Both the position numbers and the translations under genes were made by a program. From Rhodococcus sp. (in: high G+C Gram-positive bacteria) (GTDB taxonomy: Bacteria > Actinomycetota > Actinomycetes > Mycobacteriales > Mycobacteriaceae), in NCBI GenBank assembly GCA_023264675.1, contig JAHFVG010000019.1, positions 6,097-70,096 of the forward strand: a stretch of DNA of 64,000 nt. Direction: 5' to 3'. Shown piece by piece: positions 1 to 31,973 of this stretch; position 1 is the stretch's first letter, and every line of letters starts with the position of its first letter. The notes under the pieces were generated by a model. It saw only the letters and a list, made by a program, of their open reading frames with translations. It did not search any database and was not told the DNA's origin.

Positions 1-342
1 GGTGATCGCCGTGTGACCGTATTTGCGCACGTGCAGGCATTTCGCCGACAGACCACGGTCGCACCGTTCACACCGGCCGCAGGACGTACCGATCGTCCAC
101 ACCACCCGATCCCCAACGGCTACCGACGCACTCGGGCCTGCGGCGACGACACGCCCGACACTCTCGTGGCCGAGGACGGTAGGCACCGGCGTCGAACGGC
201 GTCCGGATACGGTGTGCAGATCGCTGCCGCACACCGTCGAGAGTTCGACGTCCACCAGCACTTCGCCGTGTTGCAGATCTGGTAGCGGAACTTCCCGAAC
301 GAAGAATTCGGTACCCGACCAGATCGCGGCTTCAGCCCTCAT
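1..342 (-). CDS. Zn-dependent alcohol dehydrogenase, phosphonate-catabolism-associated (TIGR03366/HpnZ-like); 5' part only, runs off the window
   Basis: Manual translation from ATG at 342 gives MRAEAAIWSGTEFFVREVPLPDLQHGEVLVDVELSTVCGSDLHT...LGHESVG...CGRCERCDRGLSAKC. It has the catalytic Zn CGSD/GHE motifs and the 4-Cys structural Zn motif. ATGA overlap with the phnE stop. Not in the ORF track because there is no stop in the window. Confidence 0.9.
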   Translation of the reverse strand, partial: MRAEAAIWSGTEFFVREVPLPDLQHGEVLVDVELSTVCGSDLHTVSGRRSTPVPTVLGHESVGRVVAAGPSASVAVGDRVVWTIGTSCGRCERCDRGLSAKCLHVRKYGHTAIT

Positions 343-1160
343 GCGCCCAGTCGCTTGCGGACTGCGCCGCTGAGCAGATCGACCGCCACGACGAGGACCA
401 GAACCATGAGAATGTAGGTCATCATTTCGTCGAACCGGAACAGTGAGATCGACTGATTGATCAGGAATCCGATGCCGCCCGCACCGACGAGACCGAGGAC
501 GAGCGAGGATCGCACGTTCACGTCGAGGCGGTAGAGCAGCAGACCGACGAATTGTGGAACGACCGTCGGCAGGACCACATGCGCGGCGACCTGAGTGCTG
601 GAGGCACCGGCGACTCGTAGCGCGTCGATCGGGCCCTGATCGATTTCTTCCATGGATTCGGACCACAGTTTCGCCATCACTCCGGTGTTGTGCAGGATGA
701 TCGCGAGAACACCAGCGAACGGTCCGAGCCCGACGGCGGTGACGAAAATGAGCGCGAAGACGATATCGGGTACCGCGCGTAGGAACGACATGATGCCGCG
801 AGAAGCCTGATATACGAACGCGTTTCGGTTGGTGGTTCGTGCGCCGAGGACGGCTAACAGAATCGAGAACGGTATCGAGAACGTCGTGCCGACGAGTCCG
901 ATCGCCAAGGTGACCAGACAGGCCTCGATGCCGGGTAGAACGACTGTCGTCCACGAGAAGTCGGGCGGGAAAGCAGATTCCAGGAACTTGACGATTCCCT
1001 CCCACCCGTTGACGAGGGCGGTGACGGACACGTCGGTCTCTTCGACCGCCCAGACGTGCACGGCGACGAGTCCCAGTATCAGCGCTGCGCCGCCGAGCAG
1101 GGTCATGCGTCGGCGCGGTCGTGGTGGTACCGCAAGGCGTCGAATCGTGAGAGTGGTCAT
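339..1160 (-). CDS. phnE: Phosphonate ABC transporter permease PhnE
   Basis: Multiple TM helices, EAA-like loop (SESMEEIDQGPIDALRVAGAS), RLDVNVRSSLVLGLVGAGGIG. Start moved to ATG 1160 (MTTLTIRR), which overlaps the phnC stop. Confidence 0.92.
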   Translation of the reverse strand: MTTLTIRRLAVPPRPRRRMTLLGGAALILGLVAVHVWAVEETDVSVTALVNGWEGIVKFLESAFPPDFSWTTVVLPGIEACLVTLAIGLVGTTFSIPFSILLAVLGARTTNRNAFVYQASRGIMSFLRAVPDIVFALIFVTAVGLGPFAGVLAIILHNTGVMAKLWSESMEEIDQGPIDALRVAGASSTQVAAHVVLPTVVPQFVGLLLYRLDVNVRSSLVLGLVGAGGIGFLINQSISLFRFDEMMTYILMVLVLVVAVDLLSGAVRKRLGA

Positions 1161-1957
1161 CGGCTTTCCTTCTCGGAAGGTTCGTACAGTGCGGCCACGG
1201 TGTCGTCGTCGAGGTCGTAGGCAGCGCAGGAGAACGAGATTCGTCCCGCATCGAGGCCGACGATCCGGTGGCAGTGGCGTCGAGCGAGATCGGGTTGGTG
1301 CAGTACTGCGGCGACCGCGATTCCGTCGGCTGCCAGTGATTGCAGCAGGCGCATCACTTGCTCGGCCGAGGCCGGGTCCAACGCGGACACAGGTTCGTCG
1401 GCGAGCAGAACCGGCGCACGCTGGCACAGTGCACGGGCGATGGCGACGCGCTGCTGCTGACCGCCGGACAGTCGGTCGGCGCGGTCGTGGGCGCGATCGG
1501 CGAGTCCGACACGGTCGAGGCAACCCATGGCTTCCTCACGCAGTTCGCGCCCGAACGCGAGTGTTGACCAGGATCGCCGGAGGGACAATCTGCCCAGGGC
1601 TCCCGCGCAGACGTTGTCGAGAACCGATCGACGACCGACCAGATGGATCTGCTGGAACACCATCGCGGCGTTGTGCGCCGTGGACCGGCCGAGGGTCGAT
1701 TCTCCCGCAACCTCGATGGTTCCGCCGTCCACGGATGTCAGACCCACGACGCAGCGAAGCATCGTCGACTTGCCGGATCCGTTGGCGCCGAGAATGCCGA
1801 CGAGTTCTCCCGCGTGTACGTCGAGATCGACCCCGTGCAGGACAGTTCGGTCACCGAAGGAGGTGCGCAACTGACGGATCGACAGGGCCGGCAGATCACC
1901 GTGCACTTCGGACCGAGGTACTACTTCGGTCGGTTCGGAAACGACCTCGGTGGTCAT
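1157..1957 (-). CDS. phnC: Phosphonate ABC transporter ATP-binding protein PhnC
   Basis: Walker A GANGSGKS, signature LSGGQQQRVAIARAL, Walker B LLADEP, VLHQ. Start at ATG 1957 overlaps the phnD stop. Confidence 0.92.
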   Translation of the reverse strand: MTTEVVSEPTEVVPRSEVHGDLPALSIRQLRTSFGDRTVLHGVDLDVHAGELVGILGANGSGKSTMLRCVVGLTSVDGGTIEVAGESTLGRSTAHNAAMVFQQIHLVGRRSVLDNVCAGALGRLSLRRSWSTLAFGRELREEAMGCLDRVGLADRAHDRADRLSGGQQQRVAIARALCQRAPVLLADEPVSALDPASAEQVMRLLQSLAADGIAVAAVLHQPDLARRHCHRIVGLDAGRISFSCAAYDLDDDTVAALYEPSEKESR

Positions 1958-2862
1958 CCCGCGTCCTTCGAGGTGAGGCCGAGTGTGTCGGCCAGGTCGA
2001 ACAAGGGTTGGTAGGTGCTCTTGTCGACCGGGAGGAGTTGTCCGGCAGGATCGACGTCGAGCAGAGCGCCTGCCTCGGCGACAGCCTCGGGGGAAAGATT
2101 CACGAGTGCGTCGGCTACGGCTTTCTGGAACTCTTCGCTGGTGCCGCCGGCCACGGTGATGGGGTCGTTGGGGATGGGATTCGAAGTCCACACCTGACGG
2201 AACTGCGACTGATCGAACTGCCCCTCGCCGGTGGAGGTCGCCACTTGCTGCGAGTTGATCTCGGCAGCATCGACTTTGCCGTTGGTCAGGGCCAGGAGTG
2301 CTTCGGGATGGCCGCCGGCGTAGGTGATCTTCACGTCGGAGTCCTGCATGTTGCTGTCACGCAGAGCCATTCGTGGCAACGCATCTCCGGAGGTCGAACC
2401 GGGCTCCGAGAGTGCGAGGGTGCGGCCGCGGAGGTCCTCGATCGACTCGATGTCGGAGTCCTTGGGTACCCAGACTCCCGCGGTGTAGCTGGACAACGTT
2501 CCCTCGGCGGTCCCGAACGACGCGAGGGCGCGCGCATCAGCCTCCTGGCTGGCGAAGACATAACCGAGGGGCCCGAAAACGCCCAGCTCGAGCTGGCCGT
2601 TGCGCATGGCCAGAACCTCGGCTGCATAGTTGTCGACGACGGTCACCTCGACCGGGCAGTTCAGCTTCTCGGACAGTGCATCGCCGACAACCTGGAACGC
2701 GGGCGTGAGTTTGGCGGGGTCCTCGAAAGGCTCGACGCCGAACCTGATCTGGCCACCGGGGCAGGTGGGAGATTCGGCGGCTGTGTCGGAATTGCTACCG
2801 CACGAGGTCAAGGCGAGGGTGAGGGCGGCGAGCGCTACGGCCGCGTGACGGGACTTGATCAT
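1954..2862 (-). CDS. phnD: Phosphonate ABC transporter substrate-binding lipoprotein PhnD
   Basis: Lipobox LTSC, PhnD-like STSG motif, GGHPEALLAL, position in the phnCE operon. Confidence 0.9.
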   Translation of the reverse strand: MIKSRHAAVALAALTLALTSCGSNSDTAAESPTCPGGQIRFGVEPFEDPAKLTPAFQVVGDALSEKLNCPVEVTVVDNYAAEVLAMRNGQLELGVFGPLGYVFASQEADARALASFGTAEGTLSSYTAGVWVPKDSDIESIEDLRGRTLALSEPGSTSGDALPRMALRDSNMQDSDVKITYAGGHPEALLALTNGKVDAAEINSQQVATSTGEGQFDQSQFRQVWTSNPIPNDPITVAGGTSEEFQKAVADALVNLSPEAVAEAGALLDVDPAGQLLPVDKSTYQPLFDLADTLGLTSKDAG

Positions 2863-2886
2863 GGAGGTCTCCTGGTGGGGTGAGGG

Positions 2887-4002
2887 TCAGAACGAGTCGA
2901 GAACGGAGGTGGAAAGGCCGAAGGCGGTTGTCATGCCGATGCCGGAGGTGACCGACACCACCCTGACGCGTGTTGATGGTGCGGCAGTGAGGAAGTCGGT
3001 GTGCGGACTGGTGGCATATACCCCGCGCCACCGACGCAGGACGGTCAATGGAGTACCGAACAACCGTGCACCTTCGCGCAGGAGGAGTTCGGCATTGGAT
3101 TCGTCGTCGAAGGGAGTATGGGTGCGTGCGTTGTGGTGAGTGTCGCCGAGGACCACCGCACCGTCGGGGCGTTGTGTGAGCATGAGATTCATTGCAACGT
3201 CGATCAATTCGGGAGTGTCGGCTTCGATTCGACTACGCACAGCCTGCGCCGAGGGCATGGCGGCGAGTCCGTCGTAGCGAAGCATCGACAGTCCGGTCAG
3301 GATCGCCGAGTCCAGGACGATTCCTCCGGGTGGTGCGACTTCGAGCATCTGCAGGCGGCATCGCTCGACGCTCCACTCCGCCGCGATATTCGGAAACAGT
3401 CGGTCGACATCGTGACCGACAGCGTGGACGACGTGAGCTCCGCGCACCGCTCCTCGTGACGTGCGGACGACGGGGTCCTCGTCTCCGAGAATCTCGATCA
3501 CCGATGTATCCCAGAAGAATTGGACTCCCTCAGCGGCAAGCCATGCGGCGAGAGCAGGTGCCGCTTCGCGAGGATCGACCCGAAGATCCATCGGTAGGTG
3601 CGCGGCGCCCAGTACGTCGGCGCCGCCGATGGGGCTCGATGCTCGCATCCGAACCTGCTCGGATCCGCGCTCGGCGGCGAATTCCTCGAGCACGGCCACT
3701 TCGTCGGCAGCACGGGCGACGACGAGCGTGCCGCACTCTCGTACGTCGAACCCTGCCTTTCTGCCGAGAGCCAGCCAACGCTCACGGGCGGCCAAAGCAT
3801 AGGTCAGTGCTCGGCCTGACTGCGCCGTCGTGCAGATGTGTCCGAAGTTCCGGATCGAGGCGCCGACGGCGCGATCGTTTCGTTCGATGACGGCGACGGA
3901 CATGCCGCGCTGCACCGCCTCGGCGGCATGCGCGAGTCCGACGATGCCTGCGCCGACGACGACGAGGTCGAACGAGTGCTTGGGGGAGTGGTCGGTCTTC
4001 AC
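2887..4002 (-). CDS. FAD-dependent oxidoreductase, DAO family (TIGR03364/HpnW-like, putative aminophosphonate oxidase)
   Basis: GAGIVGLAHA dinucleotide-binding motif, GASIRNFG, VTSGIGMT. Syntenic with phnCDE and a PhnX-like HAD. Start is uncertain (GTG 4002 or the ORF-track start 4038). Confidence 0.85.
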   Translation of the reverse strand: MKTDHSPKHSFDLVVVGAGIVGLAHAAEAVQRGMSVAVIERNDRAVGASIRNFGHICTTAQSGRALTYALAARERWLALGRKAGFDVRECGTLVVARAADEVAVLEEFAAERGSEQVRMRASSPIGGADVLGAAHLPMDLRVDPREAAPALAAWLAAEGVQFFWDTSVIEILGDEDPVVRTSRGAVRGAHVVHAVGHDVDRLFPNIAAEWSVERCRLQMLEVAPPGGIVLDSAILTGLSMLRYDGLAAMPSAQAVRSRIEADTPELIDVAMNLMLTQRPDGAVVLGDTHHNARTHTPFDDESNAELLLREGARLFGTPLTVLRRWRGVYATSPHTDFLTAAPSTRVRVVSVTSGIGMTTAFGLSTSVLDSF

Positions 4003-4050
4003 GAGGACAACAGTCCACTTCCCGGGACGGAGGGTCAATGGAAAACTGAC

Positions 4051-4066
4051 ACTTGTTCGAACAAGT
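4051..4066. promoter_or_regulatory. Perfect 16-bp palindrome ACTTGTTCGAACAAGT, candidate operator of the adjacent GntR/HutC-family regulator
   Basis: Perfect palindrome in the divergent intergenic region; resembles HutC-subfamily TTGT-N4-ACAA operators. Confidence 0.65.
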
Positions 4067-4086
4067 TCACCGACCGTTCATGCAGC
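4065..4086 (+). promoter_or_regulatory. PHO-box-like 11-nt direct repeats GTTCACCGACC/GTTCATGCAGC
   Basis: Two GTTCA units exactly 11 nt apart, matching the actinobacterial PhoP GTTCA direct-repeat pattern, upstream of a phosphonate uptake operon. Confidence 0.55.
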
Positions 4087-4169
4087 ACGAGCTGGATTGT
4101 TTGCTTCGGTTACGACATGATTGGTCTTGTTCGGTTGGAGTTGTTCAGTCAGGTTGGAGGCTATCCGCG

Positions 4170-4913
4170 GTGTCACTTCCGCTGCATTCCCGCGTTGCCG
4201 ATAGTTTGCGTGCGCAGATCGCCGACGGCACCCTGGCAGTCGGTGCTCCGCTGCCCTCGGAAGCGACTCTGTGTGCGACGCATCATGCGTCGCGCGGCAC
4301 GGTTCGGGCCGCGTTGGCTGCGTTGCGTAACGAGGGATTGATTGCGGGCGGACGTGGTCGCCCGCCCGTCGTGTGCGACACCGCGGTCGGGCAGCCGTTC
4401 GAGACCTTCATGTCGTTCACCGCTTGGGCGGATTCCATCGGTCGAACGCCAGGGCAGCGCACGTTGGAGGTTGCTCGACGCTCGGCCACGTCGGTGGCTG
4501 CGGCGGCGCTCGATCTCGAGCCGGGCACCGCCGTCGTGGATGTGTTGAGGTTGCGTACGCTCGACGGCGCACCGGCGATGCTGGAGAGATCGAGTTTCGT
4601 CGAATCGGTCGGCCGGAAGCTGTTCGATTTCGATCCCGACTCGGGCTCGATCTACGCCTACCTGACCGGTGAGGGCGTCGATCTGCACGAAGGCAGGCAC
4701 ACCATCGATGCGGTTGCGGCCACCGACATCGACGCGGCACACCTCGACATAGATCCCGGGGCGCCGCTTCTGCGCGAAAGACGCAGAGCTGTAGACCTTT
4801 CCGGTACACCACTCGAATACGCGGACGATCGGTACCGGCCCGATCGAATCGCTTTCACCATCGACAACACACGAACCGCGCACGATTTGCGCATCGTCAA
4901 GGAGATCTCGTGA
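4170..4913 (+). CDS. GntR/HutC-family transcriptional regulator with UTRA domain (PhnF-like)
   Basis: wHTH (LPSEATLCATHHASRGTVRAAL) and UTRA (YRPDRIAF). GTG 4170 is preceded by GGAGG at 4156-4160. Confidence 0.88.
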   Translation: MSLPLHSRVADSLRAQIADGTLAVGAPLPSEATLCATHHASRGTVRAALAALRNEGLIAGGRGRPPVVCDTAVGQPFETFMSFTAWADSIGRTPGQRTLEVARRSATSVAAAALDLEPGTAVVDVLRLRTLDGAPAMLERSSFVESVGRKLFDFDPDSGSIYAYLTGEGVDLHEGRHTIDAVAATDIDAAHLDIDPGAPLLRERRRAVDLSGTPLEYADDRYRPDRIAFTIDNTRTAHDLRIVKEIS

Positions 4914-5605
4914 CACCGACACGCTCGTTCGACCTTGCCAGCCTCGACATGGCGGGCACCACCGTGGATGAGGGGGGCCTCGTGTACGAGGTGCTCTCGA
5001 GCACCGTCGTCGAGGCTGCCGGAACCCCGCTGCCCCCCGAACTCCTCGCTACGTGGAAGGGCACCAGCAAGCTCGAGGCAATAGCCGGCCTGCTCGATGG
5101 CTTGGGTGTTCCGGCCGACTCGATCTCGGTGGATGCCGTGTTCGAAACGTTCCGGGCGAACCTCATCGACGCATATCGGCAGACGCCGCCGAAACCGGTT
5201 GCCGGGGTTCCCGAAGCGCTGCGTTCATTGCGGGATCGGGGTGTGAAAGTCGCGTTGCAGACCGGCTATTCGGCAGATATTGCCGACGCGATTCTGGCGG
5301 GAATGGGCTGGACCGTCGGTACCGGTAAAGGCAACACTGTCGACGCATTGATCACGTCGGATCTGGTTCCGGCAAGCAGGCCTGCGCCCTATCTGATCTT
5401 TCGCAGCATGGAGGCCACCGGAGTGACGGATGTCCGACGAGTCCTCGTTGCGGGTGATACGCCGAACGACGTTCTTGCCGGTTGGAACGCGGGTGCTGGT
5501 TTCGTCGTTGGTGTTCTCAGCGGATCGTTCGACGAGGATGCACTGCAGCAAACACCCGCTACTCACGTTCTGGGAAGCCTGGCGACCGTCGGCACCCTGC
5601 TGTAG
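4910..5605 (+). CDS. Phosphonatase-like HAD hydrolase (TIGR03351/PhnX-like)
   Basis: Motif I DMAGT, cap WKGTSK, SRPAPYLI, AGDTPND. GTGA overlap with the regulator. Confidence 0.87.
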   Translation: MTPTRSFDLASLDMAGTTVDEGGLVYEVLSSTVVEAAGTPLPPELLATWKGTSKLEAIAGLLDGLGVPADSISVDAVFETFRANLIDAYRQTPPKPVAGVPEALRSLRDRGVKVALQTGYSADIADAILAGMGWTVGTGKGNTVDALITSDLVPASRPAPYLIFRSMEATGVTDVRRVLVAGDTPNDVLAGWNAGAGFVVGVLSGSFDEDALQQTPATHVLGSLATVGTLL

Positions 5606-5860
5606 CGGTCTGAAACGTCAACCATGAACGTCTGAGAAATGGTCGCCGCGCCCCAGATGCGCGTCACTGCTTCCGACAACCGCGCTCAGCGATCCTGGCG
5701 TAGTGTGATGTTCGCTGCACAGCGCCCAGTGGCGGAAACTTCGTCGACCTGGCCCGACATGGTGAAACGCTGAGACCTTGAACGATCGCGACTGAATGCG
5801 AGTCAAGAAACTTCCGAATGCTTACTTGTCAATCGTTCTGCAAGCGATCATTGTTGCGCG

Positions 5861-6079
5861 ATGACCTCTGCACACTCGCCCGTCGTCGACGAGGAGCGTC
5901 GCGCACTGAACGATGTTCGCGACCGGCTTCGTCTCCAGTTTTCGACCGTTGCTCCCGATGAAGTGGACACGGCTGTAGCTCACGCACACCGAAAGTTCGA
6001 CGGGGGCAAGATCCGCGATTTCGTACCGCTGTTCGTTGAAAGAGCAGCGCGCGAACACCTTGCAGGCGTGCCTCGCTGA
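5861..6079 (+). CDS. Small three-helix-bundle dimerization domain protein (DUF3562-like)
   Basis: 72 aa; the C-terminal KIRDFVPLFVERAARE pattern is typical of this actinobacterial family. Confidence 0.7.
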   Translation: MTSAHSPVVDEERRALNDVRDRLRLQFSTVAPDEVDTAVAHAHRKFDGGKIRDFVPLFVERAAREHLAGVPR

Positions 6080-6489
6080 CGCCGTCGTCGGACGGCCCGT
6101 AGGCGCTTGCCCGAATCGTCAGGGACTTGGTCGTGACCAAGCAACACGAGCAGTCCGGTCACGCGACATATCGTTCATCTGAATTGATCGGCAGCCTCTG
6201 GATGCATGTCGTTTTCAATGCACGCAAGGTAACAACGTCTGTCGTCGACAGGCCTCCAGAAGCATGCGCGATGCCGGTGATTCGTTCGAGTGCGTCAGCG
6301 GTGTGGTGAGACTGTTGACCGGCGCCACGGCATTGCCATGCTTCAACCGCAATGGGAACGACAGGCGGTAAGTCGGCAGTGGTAATGCGCCTACCGGCCT
6401 TGCGCACGCTCTTGCGAGGATCGGCCGCGCGGATGCCGCAATTTACCCTTGTCCTGGCCAGTATCCATTACCCAGCCACAGACCGGTAT

Positions 6490-6504
6490 ATCGGTTATTT
6501 CGAT
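6490..6504. promoter_or_regulatory. LysR-type recognition site ATC-N9-GAT (T-N11-A)
   Basis: ATCGGTTATTTCGAT is an interrupted palindrome just upstream of a TTGACG hexamer (6515-6520), ahead of the dctA-lysR-phnA operon. Confidence 0.5.
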
Positions 6505-6639
6505 GGGCAGGATTTTGACGTGGGTCAGTTTGGTTGCGGAGTTCACCTTCTCGTCATGACGCGTTAGCAGACACGCTCGGTCTTCTTCGGACGATGTTGT
6601 TGCACGGCGATACTGGATCGCTCTCGTGAAGGACGACTC

Positions 6640-8067
6640 ATGACCCACATCTCCACCGCACCACGCGACCGCATCGTCCCGTCGCGACGAACTCCATGGT
6701 TTCGTCACCTGTATGTCTGGGTGTTGATCGCGATGGTTCTCGGCTCATCGGTCGGTCTGCTGTGGCCGGGCGTCGGAACAGCTCTGAAACCGCTCGGCGA
6801 CGCATTTGTCAGTCTCCTGACCATGACTCTGGCGCCCCTTGTGCTGTGCATGGTTGTCGCCGGGATCGGTGCAGTGGCCAATCTCGGCTCGGTCGGCAAG
6901 GTAGCTTTGCGTTCGATCATCTATTTCGAGGCCGTGACGACGATCGCGCTTGCGCTCGGCCTACTGGCCGTCAATGTCGTACGGCCCGGCGACGGTCTGC
7001 ACGTGGACGCGGACTCACTCGAAATGACCGAAAATGTGGCCGCCGGGGTGGCCGCCGGCCAGGATCTGGAATGGTACGACTACTTTCTGCAGATCATCCC
7101 ATCGAACATCGTGGGTAGCTTGGCCGACGGCGCCATCTTGCCGATCCTGTTCTTCGCCATCCTGCTGGGAATCAGCCTGCAGATGATGGGGGAACGTGGC
7201 CGCGTTGTAGCTCGCGGCGTCGAACGTCTGGGAGAGGCTCTGTTTCAGGTAGTCCGAATCGTCGTCTGGGCCGCTCCGATAGGAGTCTTCGGTGCTATGT
7301 CCTACACCGTCGGGAACTTCGGGTCGGCGTCGCTGGGAGCGCTCGTCCAACTGATCGCAACGTTCTACGCCACGTCGCTGATGTTCATCGTGTTCGTTCT
7401 GGGAGGCGTTCTGCTGGTCATCGGATTGAGGCCGTGGCGCGTGCTCCTCTACCTGAAAGATGAAGTGCTGCTCGCACTGGGCGCCTCGTCGTCCGAAGTC
7501 GCACTGCCCGGCATCGTACGGAAGCTGGAGAGTGTCGGAGTCTCCAAGGAGACAGCAGGTATCAGTGTCACAGCGGGATACTCGTTCAATCTGGACGGAA
7601 CCTGCATTTACCTCACTCTGACAACGGGGTTCATAGCCCAGGCGCTCGGGATCGATATGTCCCTCGGTCAGCAGATTGTCTTGCTGCTGGTCATGCTGCT
7701 CGCATCCAAGGGCACCGCGGGCGTTACCGGGGGTGGCTTCGTCATGCTGACCACCAGCGTCTCCTCTCTCGGCCTGATCCCTGTATCGGGCGTTATGCTC
7801 GTGTTCGGTATCGATCGCTTCATGTCGGAATGTCGCGCGGTCGTCAATTCGCTGGGCAACGCTGTTGCCGGGCTCGTGGTGGCCCGCTGGCAAGGTGAGA
7901 TCGATCCCGGTCAGGTGCATTCCATCATGGCCGGACATTCGCCCGCATTCGACTCCGGCAGAGCCGAACTGGAGTCCGTCGAACAGCGCGACGAACAGTT
8001 CTTTCCCGACCCGGCCGAACGACCTACACCCGCGTCGGCGAGACACACGTCGGCAGCAACGCTGTGA
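6640..8067 (+). CDS. dctA: Dicarboxylate/amino acid:cation symporter (DctA family)
   Basis: ASSSEVALP, GYSFNLDGT, SKGTAGVTGGGF and DRFMSECRA motifs of the DAACS family. Confidence 0.88.
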   Translation: MTHISTAPRDRIVPSRRTPWFRHLYVWVLIAMVLGSSVGLLWPGVGTALKPLGDAFVSLLTMTLAPLVLCMVVAGIGAVANLGSVGKVALRSIIYFEAVTTIALALGLLAVNVVRPGDGLHVDADSLEMTENVAAGVAAGQDLEWYDYFLQIIPSNIVGSLADGAILPILFFAILLGISLQMMGERGRVVARGVERLGEALFQVVRIVVWAAPIGVFGAMSYTVGNFGSASLGALVQLIATFYATSLMFIVFVLGGVLLVIGLRPWRVLLYLKDEVLLALGASSSEVALPGIVRKLESVGVSKETAGISVTAGYSFNLDGTCIYLTLTTGFIAQALGIDMSLGQQIVLLLVMLLASKGTAGVTGGGFVMLTTSVSSLGLIPVSGVMLVFGIDRFMSECRAVVNSLGNAVAGLVVARWQGEIDPGQVHSIMAGHSPAFDSGRAELESVEQRDEQFFPDPAERPTPASARHTSAATL

Positions 8068-8972
8068 CGCTGCCCAGTCTTCATCGATTACGGGTCTTCG
8101 TCGCAATCGTCGATGCCGGGAGTGTGTCGTCCGGAGCCCGCCATCTCGGCATCGGTCAGTCCACTGCGTCGACTCACCTTCGCCAACTGGAGGTCGAGGT
8201 CGGAACTTCGTTGATCGACAGAACCCGTGGGCATTTCGGCCCTACCGAGGCAGGCATGATCTTGGTCGGGCACGCTCGCCGCCTGATGAATATTGCCGAC
8301 GAAGCTGTCGACGACTTGGCGCGAATCAGTCTGCGCCCGCTTACCGGATCGCTTGCCGTAGGTGCCACGACGACGACAACGGAGGGTTGCTTCCTGCCGA
8401 TCGCGTTGCAACGCTTCGCTTCCCAGTACCCCGACGTGGCTTTGAATCTGCAGGTGGACAACTCGTCGACGTTGCTGCGTCGAGTGCGCGACGGGGACGT
8501 CGGTGTCGCGGTCATCGCCACGGAAATCGACGATCCCGCCCTCACGACGATAGCTTTGTCACCCGAAGACCAGACCGTCATAGTGTCCAGCGAGCATCCG
8601 CTGGCAGGCTCGTCTGTCGACCCACACCTTCTCCGTAGTTCCGTGGTGCTGTTGCGCGAAGAGGGCTCGGCTACGAGGCAATATCAGGAATCATTGCTGT
8701 CGCAGTGGAGGATTCCCGGTGCGCATACGTGGACCCTGACCAGCACCAGCGCCATCGTCGCTGCGACCGCAGCAGGTTTGGGAATCTCCTGTCTGCCAGT
8801 GGTGGTCTGCCGAGATGCGCTGGCCCTGGGCAAGATTGCCGAAATACACCTCGAGCCGGCACCGCCGCCGCGGCCGGTGTCTCTCGTTCGGCGCAGCGAC
8901 CATCACCTCACCCGAGCAGAAGAGCATTTCGTGGTGCTGGTCCAGGACGCCCTCGACTCTCTCACCCGATAA
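8064..8972 (+). CDS. LysR-family transcriptional regulator
   Basis: N-terminal HTH (GSVSSGARHLGIGQSTASTHLRQLE) and LysR substrate domain (LLREEGSATR). GTGA overlap with the dctA stop. Confidence 0.92.
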   Translation: MTLPSLHRLRVFVAIVDAGSVSSGARHLGIGQSTASTHLRQLEVEVGTSLIDRTRGHFGPTEAGMILVGHARRLMNIADEAVDDLARISLRPLTGSLAVGATTTTTEGCFLPIALQRFASQYPDVALNLQVDNSSTLLRRVRDGDVGVAVIATEIDDPALTTIALSPEDQTVIVSSEHPLAGSSVDPHLLRSSVVLLREEGSATRQYQESLLSQWRIPGAHTWTLTSTSAIVAATAAGLGISCLPVVVCRDALALGKIAEIHLEPAPPPRPVSLVRRSDHHLTRAEEHFVVLVQDALDSLTR

Positions 8973-9017
8973 GCACTACGGTCCCACATCTTCTCGACAC
9001 GATCACGAAAGCAGGAA

Positions 9018-10382
9018 TTGAAATTGCACAAGCGCCAGTTCGATGTCAACGGCCGGACCTACACCGTCCCTGAGTCGCCAGTGGTAGTGATCTGCATCGA
9101 CGGTAGTGAACCCGACTACCACATCGAGGCAATCGAAGCTGGGCGTATGCCATGGCTCAGCCGGCTGCTGGATGGTGAATCGAGTTCATGGCCGGCGCAT
9201 TGTGCTATGCCTGCTCTCACCAATCCCAACAATATGTCGATTGCCACCGGGTGCACGTCCGACGTGCACGGCATCAGCGGCAACTACATCTTCGACACCG
9301 TCACCGGCGAAGAGGTTCTCATGAACGATTCGCGTTTTCTACGGGCTCCCACCATTTTCGGCGCAGCCAACGAAGCGGGCCTCGACGTCGTCGTGGTCAC
9401 CGCGAAGGACAAGCTGCGTCGTCTACTCGGTGCAGGTCTCGTCGAAGACGGCCCTGCACTCCAGGGCGGCAGTACATTCGTCCCGCCCTCGCGCACCGGC
9501 ATCTGCTTCTCGGCCGAGCGGGCCGACGAGGCGACACTACCGAACAACGGCATCGACAAGGTGTTGGAGTTGGTGGGTAAGCCGCTTCCGCAGGTGTACT
9601 CGGCAGACCTGTCCGAGTTCGTACTCGCTGCCGGAGTGGCGATTCTGGAGTCCGAGAACGTCGATCTGATGTACCTGTCGCTGACCGACTACATACAGCA
9701 CAAACATGCCCCCGGTACCGATACGGCGAACGCGTTCTACGAGATGATCGACTCGTACGCTGCCCGACTCGACGCTCTGGGTGCCGTCGTTGTGCTGACC
9801 GCTGATCACGGAATGAGCGCCAAGACCGATGACGGGGGGACAGTGCGGGTGATCTATGTCGAGGACGAAGTCCGCCGTATCCTCGGAGCCTCGGCAGCCG
9901 GTTCGAACAACGAAGGCGCCGATGGAATCAGAGTAATTCTTCCCATCACGGACCCTTACACGGTGCATCACGGAGCACTCGGATCGTTCGCGAGTGTTTA
10001 CCTTCCCGCCGGTGCCGATCGGACCGCGGTGATGACACAGCTGCGTGCACTCGACGGTGTGCAGGCCGTCCACAGTCGCGAGCACGCCGCCGAAACCTAT
10101 GGATTGCCCGCGGATCGAATCGGCGATGTCGTTCTGATGGCGGACGCAGACACGGCAGTGGGTAGGTTCGCGGAGTGGCACGACCTGAGCGGCCTCGACG
10201 TACCGCTTCGCTCGCACGGCGCACTCGGCGAACTACAGATTCCATTCATTCTCAATCGCGCTCTGCCCCGGCCGGAGTTACTCGACGAGCCGTACGGTCA
10301 ACCCGCCTACGTCCACAACTACGATGCGTTCTGGATAGCCACCACACTGGTCAGCCGCCATCAGAACACGTCTGTGGCGTAA
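9018..10382 (+). CDS. phnA: Phosphonoacetate hydrolase PhnA (alkaline phosphatase superfamily)
   Basis: VNGRTY..P..PVVVICIDGSEPDY, nucleophile region TNPNNMSIATG, YLSLTDYIQHK, ADHGM, RSHG. TTG start. Confidence 0.92.
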   Translation: MKLHKRQFDVNGRTYTVPESPVVVICIDGSEPDYHIEAIEAGRMPWLSRLLDGESSSWPAHCAMPALTNPNNMSIATGCTSDVHGISGNYIFDTVTGEEVLMNDSRFLRAPTIFGAANEAGLDVVVVTAKDKLRRLLGAGLVEDGPALQGGSTFVPPSRTGICFSAERADEATLPNNGIDKVLELVGKPLPQVYSADLSEFVLAAGVAILESENVDLMYLSLTDYIQHKHAPGTDTANAFYEMIDSYAARLDALGAVVVLTADHGMSAKTDDGGTVRVIYVEDEVRRILGASAAGSNNEGADGIRVILPITDPYTVHHGALGSFASVYLPAGADRTAVMTQLRALDGVQAVHSREHAAETYGLPADRIGDVVLMADADTAVGRFAEWHDLSGLDVPLRSHGALGELQIPFILNRALPRPELLDEPYGQPAYVHNYDAFWIATTLVSRHQNTSVA

Positions 10383-10393
10383 GCCGACGAGAA

Positions 10394-10424
10394 GTGGCGG
10401 ACGGGGCAGAACCTCGTCCGCCAC
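10394..10424. terminator. GC-rich hairpin between convergent phnA and the ABM gene
   Basis: GTGGCGGACG / CGTCCGCCAC perfect 10-bp stem just after the phnA stop; no U-tract, which is common in actinobacteria. Confidence 0.55.
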
Positions 10425-14687: not shown

Positions 14688-15296
14688 ATGGTGAGCCGCG
14701 CGGAGTCGGCAGCCGCGACACGTCGCGCATTGCTGGACGATGCCGCCGAATTGCTCGACAGCGGCGGGCCCGGTGCTGTGACTTTGCGCGAGGTGGGTGC
14801 TCGTGCCGGGGTTTCTCGGGGTGCGCCATACCGCCACTTCGTCGACAAGGAGAGCTTGTTGACGGCGGTGGCCGCCGAGGCCTGGGAACACCTCGGAGAT
14901 CGCATGCAGGCGCTGCGCGGCGACAACGCGACGGTTCCGGCCGAGGCGCTGCGCGGCGACAACGCGACGGTTCCGGCCGTGGCGCTGAGGGCCGCACTCG
15001 CCGAGGTCATTGCCATCAGCCGCAGACAGCCGTATTTGTACGACCTGATGTTCCGCACTCCGACAGCGGATCCGGCCGCGGTTGTCCGTGCCGCTCAACG
15101 CATGTGCGACGAGTTCGCCGCCATCGTCACCACCGTCGTCGGCGAGCAGGACGCCGAGCGCTGCGCCTCGGTCCTTCTTACCGGTGCTCACGGAGCTGCC
15201 GGTCTCGAATCGAGCGGACTCCTCACCACCGACAAATGGCAGACGAATGCAGACGACCTCATCGATACGCTCATCGCTGCGGTCACGCAGCGGTGA
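14688..15296 (+). CDS. TetR-family regulator (WHG-type C-terminus) with an internal 12-aa duplication
   Basis: HTH VTLREVGARAGVSRGAPYRHFVDKESLL; divergent from the SDR. Confidence 0.88.
   Translation: MVSRAESAAATRRALLDDAAELLDSGGPGAVTLREVGARAGVSRGAPYRHFVDKESLLTAVAAEAWEHLGDRMQALRGDNATVPAEALRGDNATVPAVALRAALAEVIAISRRQPYLYDLMFRTPTADPAAVVRAAQRMCDEFAAIVTTVVGEQDAERCASVLLTGAHGAAGLESSGLLTTDKWQTNADDLIDTLIAAVTQR
14908..14979 (+). repeat. Perfect 36-bp in-frame tandem duplication
   Basis: AGGCGCTGCGCGGCGACAACGCGACGGTTCCGGCCG occurs twice (14908-14943, 14944-14979). Confidence 0.95.
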
Positions 15297-30644: not shown

Positions 30645-31973
30645 CTACTTTTTGCCGTTGCCGTTGCCGTTGCCGTTGTTGCCGTTGGAGTTGCCGTTGC
30701 CGTTGCCGTTGTTGCCGTTGGAGTTGCCATTGCCATTGCCGTTGTTCCCCGTCTCGACCGAGGGGGCGGACGGAACCGGAGCGGCCGGCTCCGAAACGGC
30801 GCCTACCGCTGGCGCCTCGACCTGTGGGGCAACGGGACTCGGTACGGCGGTGGTTGTCGGTACGGCGGTGGTTGTCGGTACGTCAGTGGTTGTCGGTACC
30901 TGCGGGCTCGTGGGAACGGGAGGCGCGGTTGTGGCCTCGACCGGAGGACCGGCCTGATCGGGCAATGACAGGATTCCCCACAGGACCACCGCAGCAACGA
31001 GGATCGCGCCCACAACGCCCAAGATCAGCCCCCGCCGCGACGCCGGACGGGCGAGCGTCACCGTGTCGGCTTCATCGAGTTCGGCCGTCTGCGGAGTGGC
31101 TGCCAGGATCGCCGTTCCGATCGGGGATGTTTCGGCATCGGGAAGGGTGCGCAGCGATTCCGAGACCTCGGCTGCCGATGGACGATGTTCCGGCCGCCGG
31201 GCAGTCATCTTGGTCAGCAGTGACACCCAGCCTTCGCCGAGCTCGGTAGGCACCTCGGGATCCCGGTGCAGTCGCGCTAGGGCCGCAGCAGTCGAGTTTC
31301 CCTCGAACACCATTCTTCCGGTGAGACATTCGATCAGGACCAGACCCAGTGAGTAGACGTCCGATTCAGGTCCGGCGTTGGCGCCGGTTGCCTGCTCGGG
31401 ACTGAGATAGTGTGCTGTCCCCACTGCCGAGCCGTGTGCTGTCAGGCGGTCGGCGTCGACGACGCGGGCGATACCGAAGTCGGTGAGTTTGGTTCGGCTG
31501 ATCGCGCCGTCGCCGATCAGAACGTTGGCGGGTTTTATGTCTCGATGAACGACGCCGGCGCTGTGGATGTACGACAACGATTCCGCGAGTTCGCGACCGA
31601 TGCGGGCGACAATGTCCGGTGGCAGTTGCCGGTGGTCGCGGAATGCACCGAGCGTCGGGCCCTCGATCAACTCCATCACCAGATATCGCACATCGACTCC
31701 GGAACCGTCGCGTGTGACGCCTGCATCGAACAGAGTCACCAAGCCCGGATACGACAGCGAGGCCAAGGTCCGCATCTCGGCGTCGATGCGGTGTTCGTCG
31801 TGCGGGGCGTGATCGGAGTGACGGAAGACCTTCACGGCCACTTGGCGCCCGAGAAGCCGATCCTCGGCACCGAAGACGTCGGCTGCACCCCCGCGGCCGA
31901 GCACACGGCCCAACTCGTACCGGCCCGCGAAAAGGCTGTCGGAGCTGATCGGCGGGCGGTCCTGACCAGCCAT
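30645..31973 (-). CDS. Transmembrane Hanks-type Ser/Thr protein kinase with a low-complexity extracellular tail
   Basis: GRGG, VAVK, HRDIKPAN, DFG, YLSPEQ; a single TM helix followed by Pro/Thr and Gly/Asn repeats. Start at ATG 31973. Confidence 0.9.
   Translation of the reverse strand: MAGQDRPPISSDSLFAGRYELGRVLGRGGAADVFGAEDRLLGRQVAVKVFRHSDHAPHDEHRIDAEMRTLASLSYPGLVTLFDAGVTRDGSGVDVRYLVMELIEGPTLGAFRDHRQLPPDIVARIGRELAESLSYIHSAGVVHRDIKPANVLIGDGAISRTKLTDFGIARVVDADRLTAHGSAVGTAHYLSPEQATGANAGPESDVYSLGLVLIECLTGRMVFEGNSTAAALARLHRDPEVPTELGEGWVSLLTKMTARRPEHRPSAAEVSESLRTLPDAETSPIGTAILAATPQTAELDEADTVTLARPASRRGLILGVVGAILVAAVVLWGILSLPDQAGPPVEATTAPPVPTSPQVPTTTDVPTTTAVPTTTAVPSPVAPQVEAPAVGAVSEPAAPVPSAPSVETGNNGNGNGNSNGNNGNGNGNSNGNNGNGNGNGKK
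30652..30745 (-). repeat. Gly-Asn coding repeat (two exact 33-bp units plus partial copies)
   Basis: TTGCCGTTGCCGTTGCCGTTGTTGCCGTTGGAG at 30658-30690 and 30691-30723. Confidence 0.9.
30841..30899 (-). repeat. 18-bp tandem repeat encoding VPTTT(A/D)
   Basis: GGTACGGCGGTGGTTGTC twice plus one variant copy. Confidence 0.9.

What the first reader, a model, noticed from the sequence alone, without database searches (positions are those of the whole stretch)
6490..10382. dctA-lysR-phnA operon: candidate DAACS-family phosphonoacetate importer
Seen: a DctA-family symporter, a co-directional LysR (GTGA-coupled, whereas LysR genes are usually divergent) and phosphonoacetate hydrolase form one run, with an ATC-N9-GAT LysR box upstream. 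Known: phosphonoacetate is an isostere of malonate, and described phnA systems use an MFS-type PhnB or an ABC transporter with a LysR (PhnR). Inference: a dicarboxylate-transporter paralog has been recruited for phosphonoacetate uptake. I do not know of this transporter class being described for phosphonates.
Basis: partly seen in the sequence, partly recalled or inferred. Interest (0 to 1): 0.72.

Follow-up and report, generated by a model that had tools for sequence, protein, structure and literature searches.

The report
Candidate phosphonoacetate importer-hydrolase gene cassette
A three-gene cassette found in many soil and groundwater actinobacteria joins a modified dicarboxylate-type transporter, a LysR regulator and phosphonoacetate hydrolase, so the transporter most likely imports phosphonoacetate, a job known so far for other transporter families; transport itself is untested.

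Summary
The window holds a DAACS/DctA-like gene (6640-8067), a LysR gene that overlaps it by GTGA (8064-8972) and a bona fide phnA (9018-10382).

The linkage is not chance. Of 10 sampled proteins in the transporter's own clade, 9 have the same SDF-LysR-PhnA order, each in unrelated flanks. A sister clade keeps the link in a rearranged form. None of 80 canonical DctA loci has phnA.

Together the two phnA-linked clades separate from canonical DctA in 200/200 bootstraps. They share substitutions next to pocket residues and keep the DctA carboxylate-binding core.

In 80 other phnA loci there is no DAACS gene. 69 carry a phnY-type dehydrogenase that makes phosphonoacetate inside the cell. The closest PhnA relatives have a GlpT/PgtP-like MFS transporter where this cassette has the DAACS gene.

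The ATC-N9-GAT box is at chance level in this window alone. As ATCG-N7-CGAT it is conserved upstream in 7 of 10 orthologous loci.

Best reading: a self-contained, LysR-controlled phosphonoacetate uptake and hydrolysis module. Transport and co-transcription are untested. DAACS proteins (GltT/GltP) are already known to admit glyphosate, so this is a new variant of a known kind.

The parts
6490..6504 (.). LysR-type (T-N11-A) box ATCGGTTATTTCGAT, the proposed recognition site of the cassette's own LysR
   Evidence: Sequence. Strict ATCG-N7-CGAT / CGAT-N7-ATCG palindromes occur 10 times at -250..-80 of 9 clade-A loci against 0.24 expected (Poisson P about 1e-13), and again in L173. They lie at in-phase distances (26, 37 or 48 nt) upstream of a conserved GTTCAC.
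6541..6547 (+). Conserved GTTCACC element: either a PHO-box-like repeat unit or the -35 / LysR activation site of the operon promoter (unresolved)
   Evidence: (G/C)TTCAC is present upstream of the transporter gene in all 10 clade-A loci. Weak in-phase repeats at +/-11 and +/-22 nt. GTTCACC is the S. coelicolor PHO-box core (PMC4415409).
6607..6621 (+). Palindrome GCGATACTGGATCGC just upstream of the ribosome-binding site; function unknown
   Evidence: Conserved in the window, L172 (M. mengxianglii) and L001 (R. fascians) at -33/-31 from the start codon.
6640..8067 (+). DAACS-family (DctA-derived) secondary transporter, 475 aa; proposed phosphonoacetate:cation symporter
8064..8972 (+). LysR-type transcriptional regulator, 302 aa, overlapping the transporter gene by GTGA
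   Evidence: The same position and 4-bp overlaps are seen in L001-L003, L170, L172 and L173.
9018..10382 (+). phnA, phosphonoacetate hydrolase (type 1), 454 aa; the start may be TTG 9024
   Evidence: TIGR02335 466.5 bits against a cut-off of 407.55. E 1.7e-128 to 3SZY. All catalytic motifs conserved.
10394..10424 (+). 13-bp G+C-rich hairpin after the phnA stop, between convergent genes; a likely operon end, with no U-tract
   Evidence: Free energy -28.2 kcal/mol, z-score -4.15, 0 of 200 shuffles as stable. Sequence.

Best explanation
The three genes form a self-contained phosphonoacetate utilisation cassette. The DctA-derived DAACS transporter imports external phosphonoacetate, an anionic, amine-free analogue of short dicarboxylates, probably with protons as DctA does. 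PhnA hydrolyses it to acetate and phosphate. The LysR protein encoded between them binds the conserved ATCG-N7-CGAT box upstream of the transporter gene and switches the operon on when phosphonoacetate is present. Because the regulator is inside its own operon, this gives positive feedback. The conserved GTTCACC next to the box may add phosphate-starvation (PhoP/RegX3-type) control. In evolutionary terms, a DctA paralogue with a remodelled pocket took the place held by a GlpT/PgtP-like MFS transporter in sister phnA loci. Shown here: the gene identities, the conserved linkage, the separate lineage, the clade-specific substitutions and the conserved upstream box. Inferred: the transported substrate, the inducer, co-transcription and any Pho control.
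For: (1) Conserved cassette. 9 of 10 sampled clade-A transporters have SDF-LysR-PhnA in the same order, mostly with 4-bp overlaps, in unrelated flanks and at least five genera (the window itself). (2) Sister clade A' keeps the link in other layouts: L006 has phnA>, <lysR, SDF>; L171 has phnA, acetyl-CoA synthetase, <lysR, SDF, PHO4, PhoU_div. That fits use of the products acetate and phosphate. (3) Negative controls. 0 of 79 canonical DctA metagenome loci and 0 of 1 Embleya dctA locus has phnA. (4) Lineage. Clade A is supported in 199/200, A' in 200/200 and A+A' against all canonical DctA including E. coli in 200/200 NJ bootstraps. (5) Pocket. The DctA core is kept: SSS 283-285, NLDGT 317-321, Ser396 at the GltPh D394 position (so no amino-group ligand), Arg399 and Asn403. 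Clade-specific changes sit beside it: T282A/S, P311S/G/T, A359T, S365G, I368V, V369M, L401V. Most are shared by A and A'. (6) Need for import. None of the five cassette loci included in that scan (L001-L004, L006), nor the 64-kb window, has a phnY or phnW homologue. By contrast 69 of 80 other phnA loci have a PhnY-type aldehyde dehydrogenase within 6 kb. (7) Displacement. 9 of the actinobacterial phnA loci in that scan, including the closest type-1 relatives at 72-75% identity and Agromyces fucosus, have an organophosphate-antiporter-type MFS directly after phnA, plus a LysR gene nearby in all nine. (8) The upstream box is conserved. (9) Precedent. The P. fluorescens 23F operon is phnA plus a transporter plus a phosphonoacetate-responsive LysR regulator, without phnW or phnY (PMC3266647).
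Against: No transport, expression or induction data exist; no RNA runs were found for this sequence. The pocket changes are conservative and their effect on specificity is only inferred by homology to GltPh. The transporter is still about 47-52% identical to canonical DctA, and the 50%-identity representative library has no separate representative for it, so it may still carry C4-dicarboxylates. One clade-A locus (L170) and one A' locus (L005) have SDF-LysR without an adjacent phnA. Five cassette loci carry a divergent type-2 PhnA-like enzyme that scores 373-383 bits, below the TIGR02335 cut-off, so their substrate could be a related phosphonocarboxylate. The window also has a PhnCDE-type ABC importer 4 kb away that could bring in phosphonates. 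No sigma-70-like promoter above chance was found.
Confidence: 0.7

Rival explanations
1. The transporter is an ordinary C4-dicarboxylate (succinate, fumarate, malate) importer that travels with LysR and phnA without carrying phosphonoacetate. Phosphonoacetate would enter by another route, such as the neighbouring PhnCDE-type ABC system or an unlinked MFS.
For: All DctA core residues are kept. The score is only just below the DctA model cut-off (488.7 against 513; the L006 protein scores 512.0). The clade merges with DctA at 50% clustering. A PhnD/C/E-type system lies at 339-2862 in the window.
Against: This does not explain why 11 of 13 sampled members of the A and A' lineages sit next to phnA while 0 of 80 canonical DctA do. 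It does not explain why the cassette occurs without any PhnCDE in the other genomes. It does not explain why the gene occupies the slot of the MFS transporter in sister loci. Canonical actinobacterial dctA sits beside a sensor kinase and response regulator instead.
Confidence: 0.12
2. The cassette handles a different phosphonocarboxylate (for example 2-phosphonopropionate, phosphonoformate or 3-phosphonopropionate), and phosphonoacetate is only a side substrate. This applies above all to the loci with the type-2 PhnA-like enzyme.
For: Type-2 enzymes (L002, L003, L004, L089, L169) are only 40-46% identical to type 1 and score below the equivalog cut-off. They change residues next to metal ligands (TDYIQHK to TDRVQHA). 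A DctA-type pocket is built for C4-length dianions.
Against: The window's own PhnA is type 1. It passes the curated equivalog threshold and is 72-75% identical to the PhnA of actinobacterial loci that also carry a PhnY-type dehydrogenase. All catalytic and Lys130/Lys132 motifs are conserved in both types. One transporter clade serves both enzyme types.
Confidence: 0.1
3. The three genes are adjacent but not one functional unit in this organism: separate promoters, or a decaying horizontally acquired remnant.
For: There is a 45-nt gap before phnA (97 nt in L172). There are no transcript data. G+C dips over 5.5-11.5 kb, and about 1 kb of unannotated DNA lies upstream.
Against: All three ORFs are intact and full length, with catalytic residues kept. 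There is a GTGA overlap, no internal terminator-like site, and a strong hairpin only after phnA. The order is identical across genera.
Confidence: 0.05

Closest known systems
Pseudomonas fluorescens 23F phosphonoacetate operon (phnA, an associated transporter and the LysR-type PhnR; Kulakova et al. 2001, 2009, as summarised in PMC3266647)
   Same: A stand-alone phnA with its own transporter and a LysR-type regulator, and no phnW or phnY. The substrate must come from outside.
   Different: The transporter here is a DAACS/DctA derivative, not the phosphonate transporter of that operon (GlpT-like MFS by my recollection; the primary paper could not be read). The LysR gene lies co-directionally between transporter and hydrolase. 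The host is an actinobacterium. The LysR protein does not reach the TIGR03339 phosphonate-LysR cut-off (127 against 341 bits).
Canonical DctA C4-dicarboxylate:H+ symporters (E. coli b3528 and actinobacterial DctA)
   Same: Same fold and family (PF00375). Same core motifs: SSS, NLDGT, Ser at the GltPh D394 position, Arg399, Asn403, Asn407. Identity is 44-52%.
   Different: A separate, bootstrap-supported lineage. Clade-specific substitutions in HP1, TM7, HP2 and TM8. Below the NCBIfam DctA cut-off. Linked to phnA and LysR instead of a DctS/DcuS-type two-component system.
Actinobacterial phnA loci with an organophosphate-antiporter-type MFS (e.g. Agromyces fucosus L009, Mycobacterium sp. PSTR-4-N L013)
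   Same: PhnA of the same type (72-75% identical), a LysR regulator nearby and a single secondary transporter next to phnA.
   Different: The transporter is PgtP/GlpT-like MFS. Most of these loci also encode a Zn-alcohol dehydrogenase and an aldehyde dehydrogenase, so they may make phosphonoacetate from another phosphonate.
phnWAY pathway for 2-aminoethylphosphonate (Sinorhizobium meliloti type)
   Same: The same terminal enzyme, PhnA (E 1.7e-128 to 3SZY).
   Different: In that pathway phosphonoacetate is produced inside the cell by PhnW and PhnY, and the transporters (ABC and others) carry aminoethylphosphonate. The window has no phnW or phnY.
GltT / GltP glutamate-aspartate symporters that admit glyphosate and glufosinate (Wicke et al. 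2019, as reviewed in PMC10574752)
   Same: DAACS-family proteins that carry a phosphonate or phosphinate into the cell.
   Different: That uptake is adventitious, through amino-acid transporters that are not linked to any catabolic operon. Here the protein is of the dicarboxylate (amine-free) type and is genetically dedicated to a C-P hydrolase.

Membership tests
DAACS family (TC 2.A.23; Pfam SDF PF00375) | Full-length match to the SDF profile and homology to solved GltPh/GltTk-type transporters | tested here: met
   PF00375 334.6 bits over residues 24-417. E 1.6e-70 to 9BGZ and about 1e-51 to GltPh chains.
DctA subfamily (NCBIfam NF002461 / NF009587) | Score at or above the curated whole-protein cut-off | tested here: not met
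   488.7 against a cut-off of 513, and 431.3 against 570. Relatives are named only 'cation:dicarboxylate symporter family transporter' by NCBI.
DctA subfamily (NCBIfam NF002461 / NF009587) | Dicarboxylate-type pocket: Arg at the GltPh R397 position and no Asp at the D394 position (no amino-group ligand) | tested here: met
   Arg399 and Ser396 are invariant in clades A, A' and canonical DctA. The roles of the GltPh residues are from established structural knowledge (Boudker et al. 2007, recalled, not re-read).
DctA subfamily (NCBIfam NF002461 / NF009587) | Transport of succinate, fumarate and malate | not testable with these tools
   Needs uptake assays.
Phosphonoacetate hydrolase PhnA (TIGR02335 equivalog) | Score above the curated equivalog cut-off | tested here: met
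   466.5 against 407.55. Type-2 enzymes of L002-L004 score 373-383 and do not meet it.
Phosphonoacetate hydrolase PhnA (TIGR02335 equivalog) | Thr nucleophile and alkaline-phosphatase-superfamily metal-ligand motifs | tested here: met
   Thr68 aligns with the residue mutated in 3T02. The D28, D224/H228, D263/H264 and H400 motifs are invariant across 14 sequences.
LysR-type transcriptional regulators | N-terminal HTH_1 domain plus C-terminal LysR_substrate domain | tested here: met
   PF00126 62.3 bits and PF03466 139.9 bits.
Phosphonate-associated LysR (TIGR03339 phn_lysR) | Score above the curated cut-off | tested here: not met
   127.3 against 341.1.
Stand-alone, substrate-inducible phosphonoacetate operon (P. 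fluorescens 23F type) | phnA together with a transporter and a LysR regulator, without phnW or phnY | tested here: met
   definition from PMC3266647.
Stand-alone, substrate-inducible phosphonoacetate operon (P. fluorescens 23F type) | Transporter homologous to that operon's phosphonate transporter | tested here: inconclusive
   The transporter here is DAACS, not MFS. The 23F transporter sequence and the primary paper were not available. The MFS found in sister actinobacterial loci is GlpT/PgtP-like.
Stand-alone, substrate-inducible phosphonoacetate operon (P. fluorescens 23F type) | Induction by phosphonoacetate independent of phosphate status | not testable with these tools
   No RNA data. 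A conserved GTTCACC hints at possible Pho control instead.

The most novel reading that the evidence does not exclude
The A and A' lineages are the first DAACS transporters dedicated to a phosphonate: phosphonoacetate:H+ symporters that arose once from DctA through a few pocket substitutions. They then spread among actinobacteria as a compact import-sense-cleave cassette under combined LysR and Pho control. This would imply that free phosphonoacetate is a regular nutrient in soil and groundwater.
Probability: 0.55. Interest if true: 0.62.

Novelty: new variant of a known kind. Interest (0 to 1): 0.55.

Why it matters
It would give a specific, testable function to a set of actinobacterial proteins now annotated only as 'cation:dicarboxylate symporter family transporter'. 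It would add a third transporter family (after ABC and MFS-type carriers) to dedicated phosphonate catabolism.

It offers a natural specificity switch, DctA to phosphonoacetate, defined by roughly a dozen substitutions that can be tested by mutagenesis.

A stand-alone uptake-plus-hydrolysis module kept in many soil and groundwater actinobacteria argues that free phosphonoacetate exists in nature, and its biogenic origin is still debated.

The LysR protein and its box are also a ready-made candidate for a phosphonoacetate biosensor in Gram-positive hosts.

Tried and rejected
1. Loose ATC-N9-GAT as evidence on its own: rejected. It occurs 25 times against 20.4 expected.
2. Consensus promoter and terminator scan: nothing above the shuffles.
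3. Rfam scan of the whole window: no family matched, so there is no riboswitch upstream.
4. RNA evidence. The only runs holding the sequence are groundwater metagenome DNA.
It was used as a negative control rather than a clade census.
6. Representative-library search. No listed representative carries the clade signature and the best hit is a canonical DctA, so clade A appears to be absorbed into a DctA-represented cluster; it gave no family-size estimate.
7. Plasmid search. No clade-A member occurs on PLSDB plasmids; all hits are below 50% identity.
8. The primary papers on the P. fluorescens operon and the PhnA structure were not held, so I relied on reviews.
9. Structure prediction was not run, because coordinates are not returned and sequence homology to GltPh already fixes the fold.
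10. The idea that the neighbouring aminoethylphosphonate-type cluster feeds PhnA was rejected: no phnY or phnW homologue occurs anywhere in the 64-kb window.


Full report
OBSERVATION

The window carries three co-directional ORFs at 6640-8067, 8064-8972 and 9018-10382.
- The first is a 475-aa member of the sodium:dicarboxylate symporter family (PF00375, 334.6 bits). Its best NCBIfam match is DctA, but it falls below the curated cut-off (488.7 against 513).
- The second is a LysR-type regulator with HTH_1 and LysR_substrate domains. Its GTG start overlaps the transporter's TGA stop as GTGA at 8064-8067.
- The third passes the phosphonoacetate hydrolase equivalog model (TIGR02335, 466.5 against 407.55). 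It aligns end to end with the solved S. meliloti PhnA (3SZY, E 1.7e-128). The Thr68 nucleophile lies in the LTNPNN motif, the same residue that is Ala in the 3T02 mutant chain.
- A 45-nt gap separates lysR from phnA.
- A 13-bp G+C-rich hairpin at 10394-10424 follows the phnA stop (-28.2 kcal/mol, z -4.15). It faces a convergent ABM-domain gene.
- ATCGGTTATTTCGAT is at 6490-6504.

IS THE LINKAGE MORE THAN CHANCE?

A search of 5.8 billion proteins showed two bands of relatives. One band, at 55-86% identity, is named only 'cation:dicarboxylate symporter family transporter' and comes from Mycolicibacterium, Rhodococcus, Nocardia, Pseudonocardia, Nocardiopsis, Streptomyces, Nonomuraea, Clavibacter, Plantibacter and Microbacterium. 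Proteins at or below 52% identity are named DctA.

I looked up the genomic context of nine members of the close band ('clade A'), which with the window makes ten sampled members.
- Eight of the nine have the same SDF-LysR-Phosphodiest(PhnA) order, mostly with 4-bp overlaps, and each lies in completely different flanking genes. They are R. fascians L001, S. hygroscopicus L002, Microbacterium L003, S. hainanensis L004, Rhodococcus sp. ABRD24 L169, M. mengxianglii L172, Nonomuraea L173/L174 and a metagenome contig L089.
- One deep-branching member (L170) has SDF-LysR but no phnA.

A small sister clade (A', 51-53% identical) also keeps the link, in other layouts.
- L006 has phnA>, <lysR, SDF>.
- L171 has phnA, acetyl-CoA synthetase, <lysR, SDF, PHO4, PhoU_div. 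That neighbourhood fits disposal of PhnA's two products, acetate and phosphate.
- L005 has SDF-LysR plus PHO4/PhoU_div without phnA.

The controls are clean. A canonical Embleya dctA sits beside a sensor kinase and response regulator. None of 79 canonical DctA loci fetched from metagenomes has any phnA homologue within reach.

PHYLOGENY

I built a neighbour-joining tree of 113 proteins including E. coli DctA and ran 200 bootstraps. Support was 199/200 for clade A, 200/200 for A', and 200/200 for the split of A+A' from all canonical DctA. The phnA-linked transporters therefore appear to have a single origin.

The lineage is narrow. In a library clustered at 50% identity, none of the 150 best-scoring representatives carries the clade signature and the top hit is a canonical DctA. 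No member was found on PLSDB plasmids.

THE VIEW FROM PHNA

A scan of one genome per species with a PhnA profile returned 80 loci at 49-75% identity.
- None has a DAACS gene within 8 kb.
- 69 have a PhnY-type aldehyde dehydrogenase within 6 kb, 40 have a PhnW-type aminotransferase, and many have ABC transporter genes. This is the known phnWAY route, in which phosphonoacetate is made inside the cell. It matches the published figure of 71 of 89 operons (PMC3266647).
- None of the five DAACS-linked loci in that scan (L001-L004, L006), nor the whole 64-kb window, has a phnY or phnW homologue. Their PhnA must therefore be fed from outside.
- The closest actinobacterial PhnA relatives (72-75%) include Agromyces fucosus, a species reported to metabolise phosphonoacetate (reference list of PMC10574752), and Mycobacterium sp. 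PSTR-4-N. They carry, directly after phnA, an MFS transporter of the organophosphate:phosphate antiporter type (PgtP/GlpT-like), and all nine have a LysR gene nearby. Nine loci show this arrangement.

The DAACS gene thus fills the transporter slot of an otherwise equivalent module. This is a non-orthologous displacement, and it is the strongest argument for the proposed function.

PhnA itself comes in two types.
- Type 1 is in the window, L001, L172, L006 and L171 and passes the equivalog cut-off.
- Type 2 is in L002, L003, L004, L089 and L169. It is 40-46% identical to type 1 and scores 373-383 bits, below the cut-off. It keeps every catalytic motif but changes TDYIQHK to TDRVQHA.

Both types are served by the same transporter clade.

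THE POCKET

I mapped the protein on GltPh through the HMMER alignment. The roles of the GltPh residues are from established structural knowledge, recalled and not re-read.

The DctA core is invariant in all groups:
- SSS 283-285;
- NLDGT 317-321;
- Ser396 at the GltPh D394 position, so there is no ligand for an amino group;
- Arg399 (R397), Asn403 (N401) and Asn407.

Beside these, clades A and A' differ from 55 canonical DctA sequences at positions that are nearly fixed in each group:

| Change (DctA to clade) | GltPh position / element |
|---|---|
| T282A/S (V/M in A') | T275, HP1 |
| P311S/G/T | position 304, TM7 |
| A359T | T352, HP2 |
| S365G | A358 |
| I368V | I361, HP2 |
| V369M | M362, HP2 |
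| L401V | M399, TM8 |
| K61T, T71M, G89A, S156N, V279A | elsewhere |

Several changes replace a residue with a smaller one, and one adds a hydroxyl on HP2. That fits a bulkier tetrahedral phosphonate in place of one carboxylate. This is inference, not a demonstrated effect.

REGULATION

The loose ATC-N9-GAT pattern is at chance level in the window (25 against 20.4). The strict palindromes ATCG-N7-CGAT and CGAT-N7-ATCG behave differently.
- They occur 10 times between -250 and -80 of nine clade-A transporter genes, against 0.24 expected from the same loci (P about 1e-13). Six loci have exact copies and two have N8 variants. L173 adds a seventh exact case.
- Several loci show the triple form ATCG-N7-CGAT-N7-ATCG.
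- The box contains the classical LysR T-N11-A core.
- It lies 26, 37 or 48 nt upstream of a (G/C)TTCAC element that is present in all ten loci. These spacings differ by whole helical turns.
- Clade A' loci, whose LysR is only about 30% identical and is divergently transcribed, carry a different conserved box, CTAT-N7-ATAG.

- Positions +/-11 and +/-22 from the element match it better (2.8-3.1 of 7) than background (1.8) or off-phase controls (1.3-2.0).
- The motif is over-represented in the window (25 against 9.75).
- A clear tandem GTTCACCGACC-GTTCATGCAGC sits in the divergent promoter region of the neighbouring phosphonate cluster.

Whether the element upstream of the cassette is a Pho site or simply the -35 / activation site of a LysR-dependent promoter remains open.

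MECHANISM PROPOSED

Basal transcription supplies a little transporter, regulator and hydrolase. Imported phosphonoacetate activates the LysR protein at its box and raises transcription of all three genes, which gives positive feedback because the regulator is inside the operon. PhnA then releases acetate and phosphate.
- Shown: the gene identities, linkage, lineage, substitutions and box conservation.
- Inferred: the substrate, the inducer, the single transcript, proton coupling and Pho input.

COMPARISON WITH WHAT IS KNOWN

Functionally this is the actinobacterial counterpart of the P. fluorescens 23F operon, which has phnA, a transporter and a phosphonoacetate-responsive LysR, without phnW or phnY (PMC3266647). 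The transporter here comes from a different superfamily, and the regulator is embedded in the operon.

A 2023 review lists these transporter types for phosphonates (PMC10574752):
- ABC systems;
- the AepP facilitator;
- a sodium symporter in S. meliloti;
- the DAACS proteins GltT and GltP as entry routes for glyphosate and glufosinate.

The class is therefore not wholly new to phosphonates. Five full-text searches found no paper connecting phnA or phosphonoacetate with DctA or DAACS transporters. The library covers only open-access papers and preprints.

VERDICT

I rate this a new variant of a known kind, with moderate interest. It is a precise and cheaply testable functional prediction for a distinct DctA offshoot, and it offers a natural specificity switch to study.

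Noticed in passing
window 339-5605: A second phosphonate locus lies next to the cassette. It has a PhnE-like permease (339-1523, -), an ABC ATPase (1157-2191, -), a PhnD-type binding protein (1954-2862, -), a TIGR03364 FAD oxidoreductase (2887-4038, -), a GntR/UTRA regulator (4053-4913, +) and a PhnX-like HAD hydrolase (4910-5605, +). This looks like an aminoethylphosphonate-type uptake and degradation cluster.
   Followed up: partly
window 4055-4086: GTTC-core repeats GTTCGAACAA / GTTCACCGACC / GTTCATGCAGC, 10-11 nt apart, lie in the divergent promoter region of that cluster. They resemble an actinobacterial PHO box. The annotated TTG start of the GntR gene at 4053 is probably too far upstream.
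   Followed up: partly
window, whole (25 sites): GTTCACC occurs 25 times against 9.75 expected from shuffles, and no shuffle reached 25. The reason is unknown; codon or composition effects were not separated from regulatory sites.
   Followed up: no
window 6607-6621; L172 and L001 at the same offset: The palindrome GCGATACTGGATCGC lies just upstream of the transporter's ribosome-binding site and is conserved in the three Mycobacteriales loci. It uses the same CGAT/ATCG half-sites as the LysR box but with N5 spacing. It could be a second operator or a 5'-UTR hairpin.
   Followed up: no
window 5606-6639: About 1 kb between the PhnX-like gene and the cassette has only small ORFs (for example 5861-6079 + and 6159-6407 -) with no Pfam match. 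G+C dips to 0.59-0.61 over 5.5-11.5 kb against 0.62-0.67 in the flanks, which suggests horizontal acquisition of the cassette.
   Followed up: partly
window 14908-14987: A 36-bp unit is present in 2.2 tandem copies at 97% identity. It lies inside a 202-aa ORF (14688-15296, +) that I take to be a TetR-family regulator from its sequence (not checked against Pfam), and it duplicates the peptide ALRGDNATVPA.
   Followed up: no
window 30652-30899: Arrays of TTGCCG-type hexamer, 27/33-nt and 18-nt tandem repeats, reminiscent of Gly/Asn-rich repeat proteins of Mycobacteriales.
   Followed up: no
L008-L010, L012, L014, L015, L019 (about 9.4-13.5 kb in each locus): These actinobacterial loci carry phnA, a GlpT/PgtP-like MFS, an aldehyde dehydrogenase and a LysR gene; a Zn-alcohol dehydrogenase clustered with the others in L008, L009, L010, L014 and L015. 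The dehydrogenases could convert 2-hydroxyethylphosphonate to phosphonoacetate, giving a possible separate route into PhnA.
   Followed up: partly
L171 7-9348: The sister-clade locus has phnA, acetyl-CoA synthetase (called as two pieces), <lysR (two pieces), SDF, a PHO4 phosphate transporter, PhoU_div and an MFS, next to a Mu-type transposase. The split genes may be assembly frameshifts.
   Followed up: no
L002 9276-10547, L003 9228-10451, L004 8279-9547, L089 7111-8319, L169 7291-8532: These loci carry a divergent type-2 PhnA-like enzyme. The three scored (L002, L003, L004) reach 373-383 bits, below the TIGR02335 cut-off. It has Tyr225Arg and Lys229Ala next to metal ligands, and in my sample it was seen only beside clade-A transporters. 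Its substrate is untested.
   Followed up: partly
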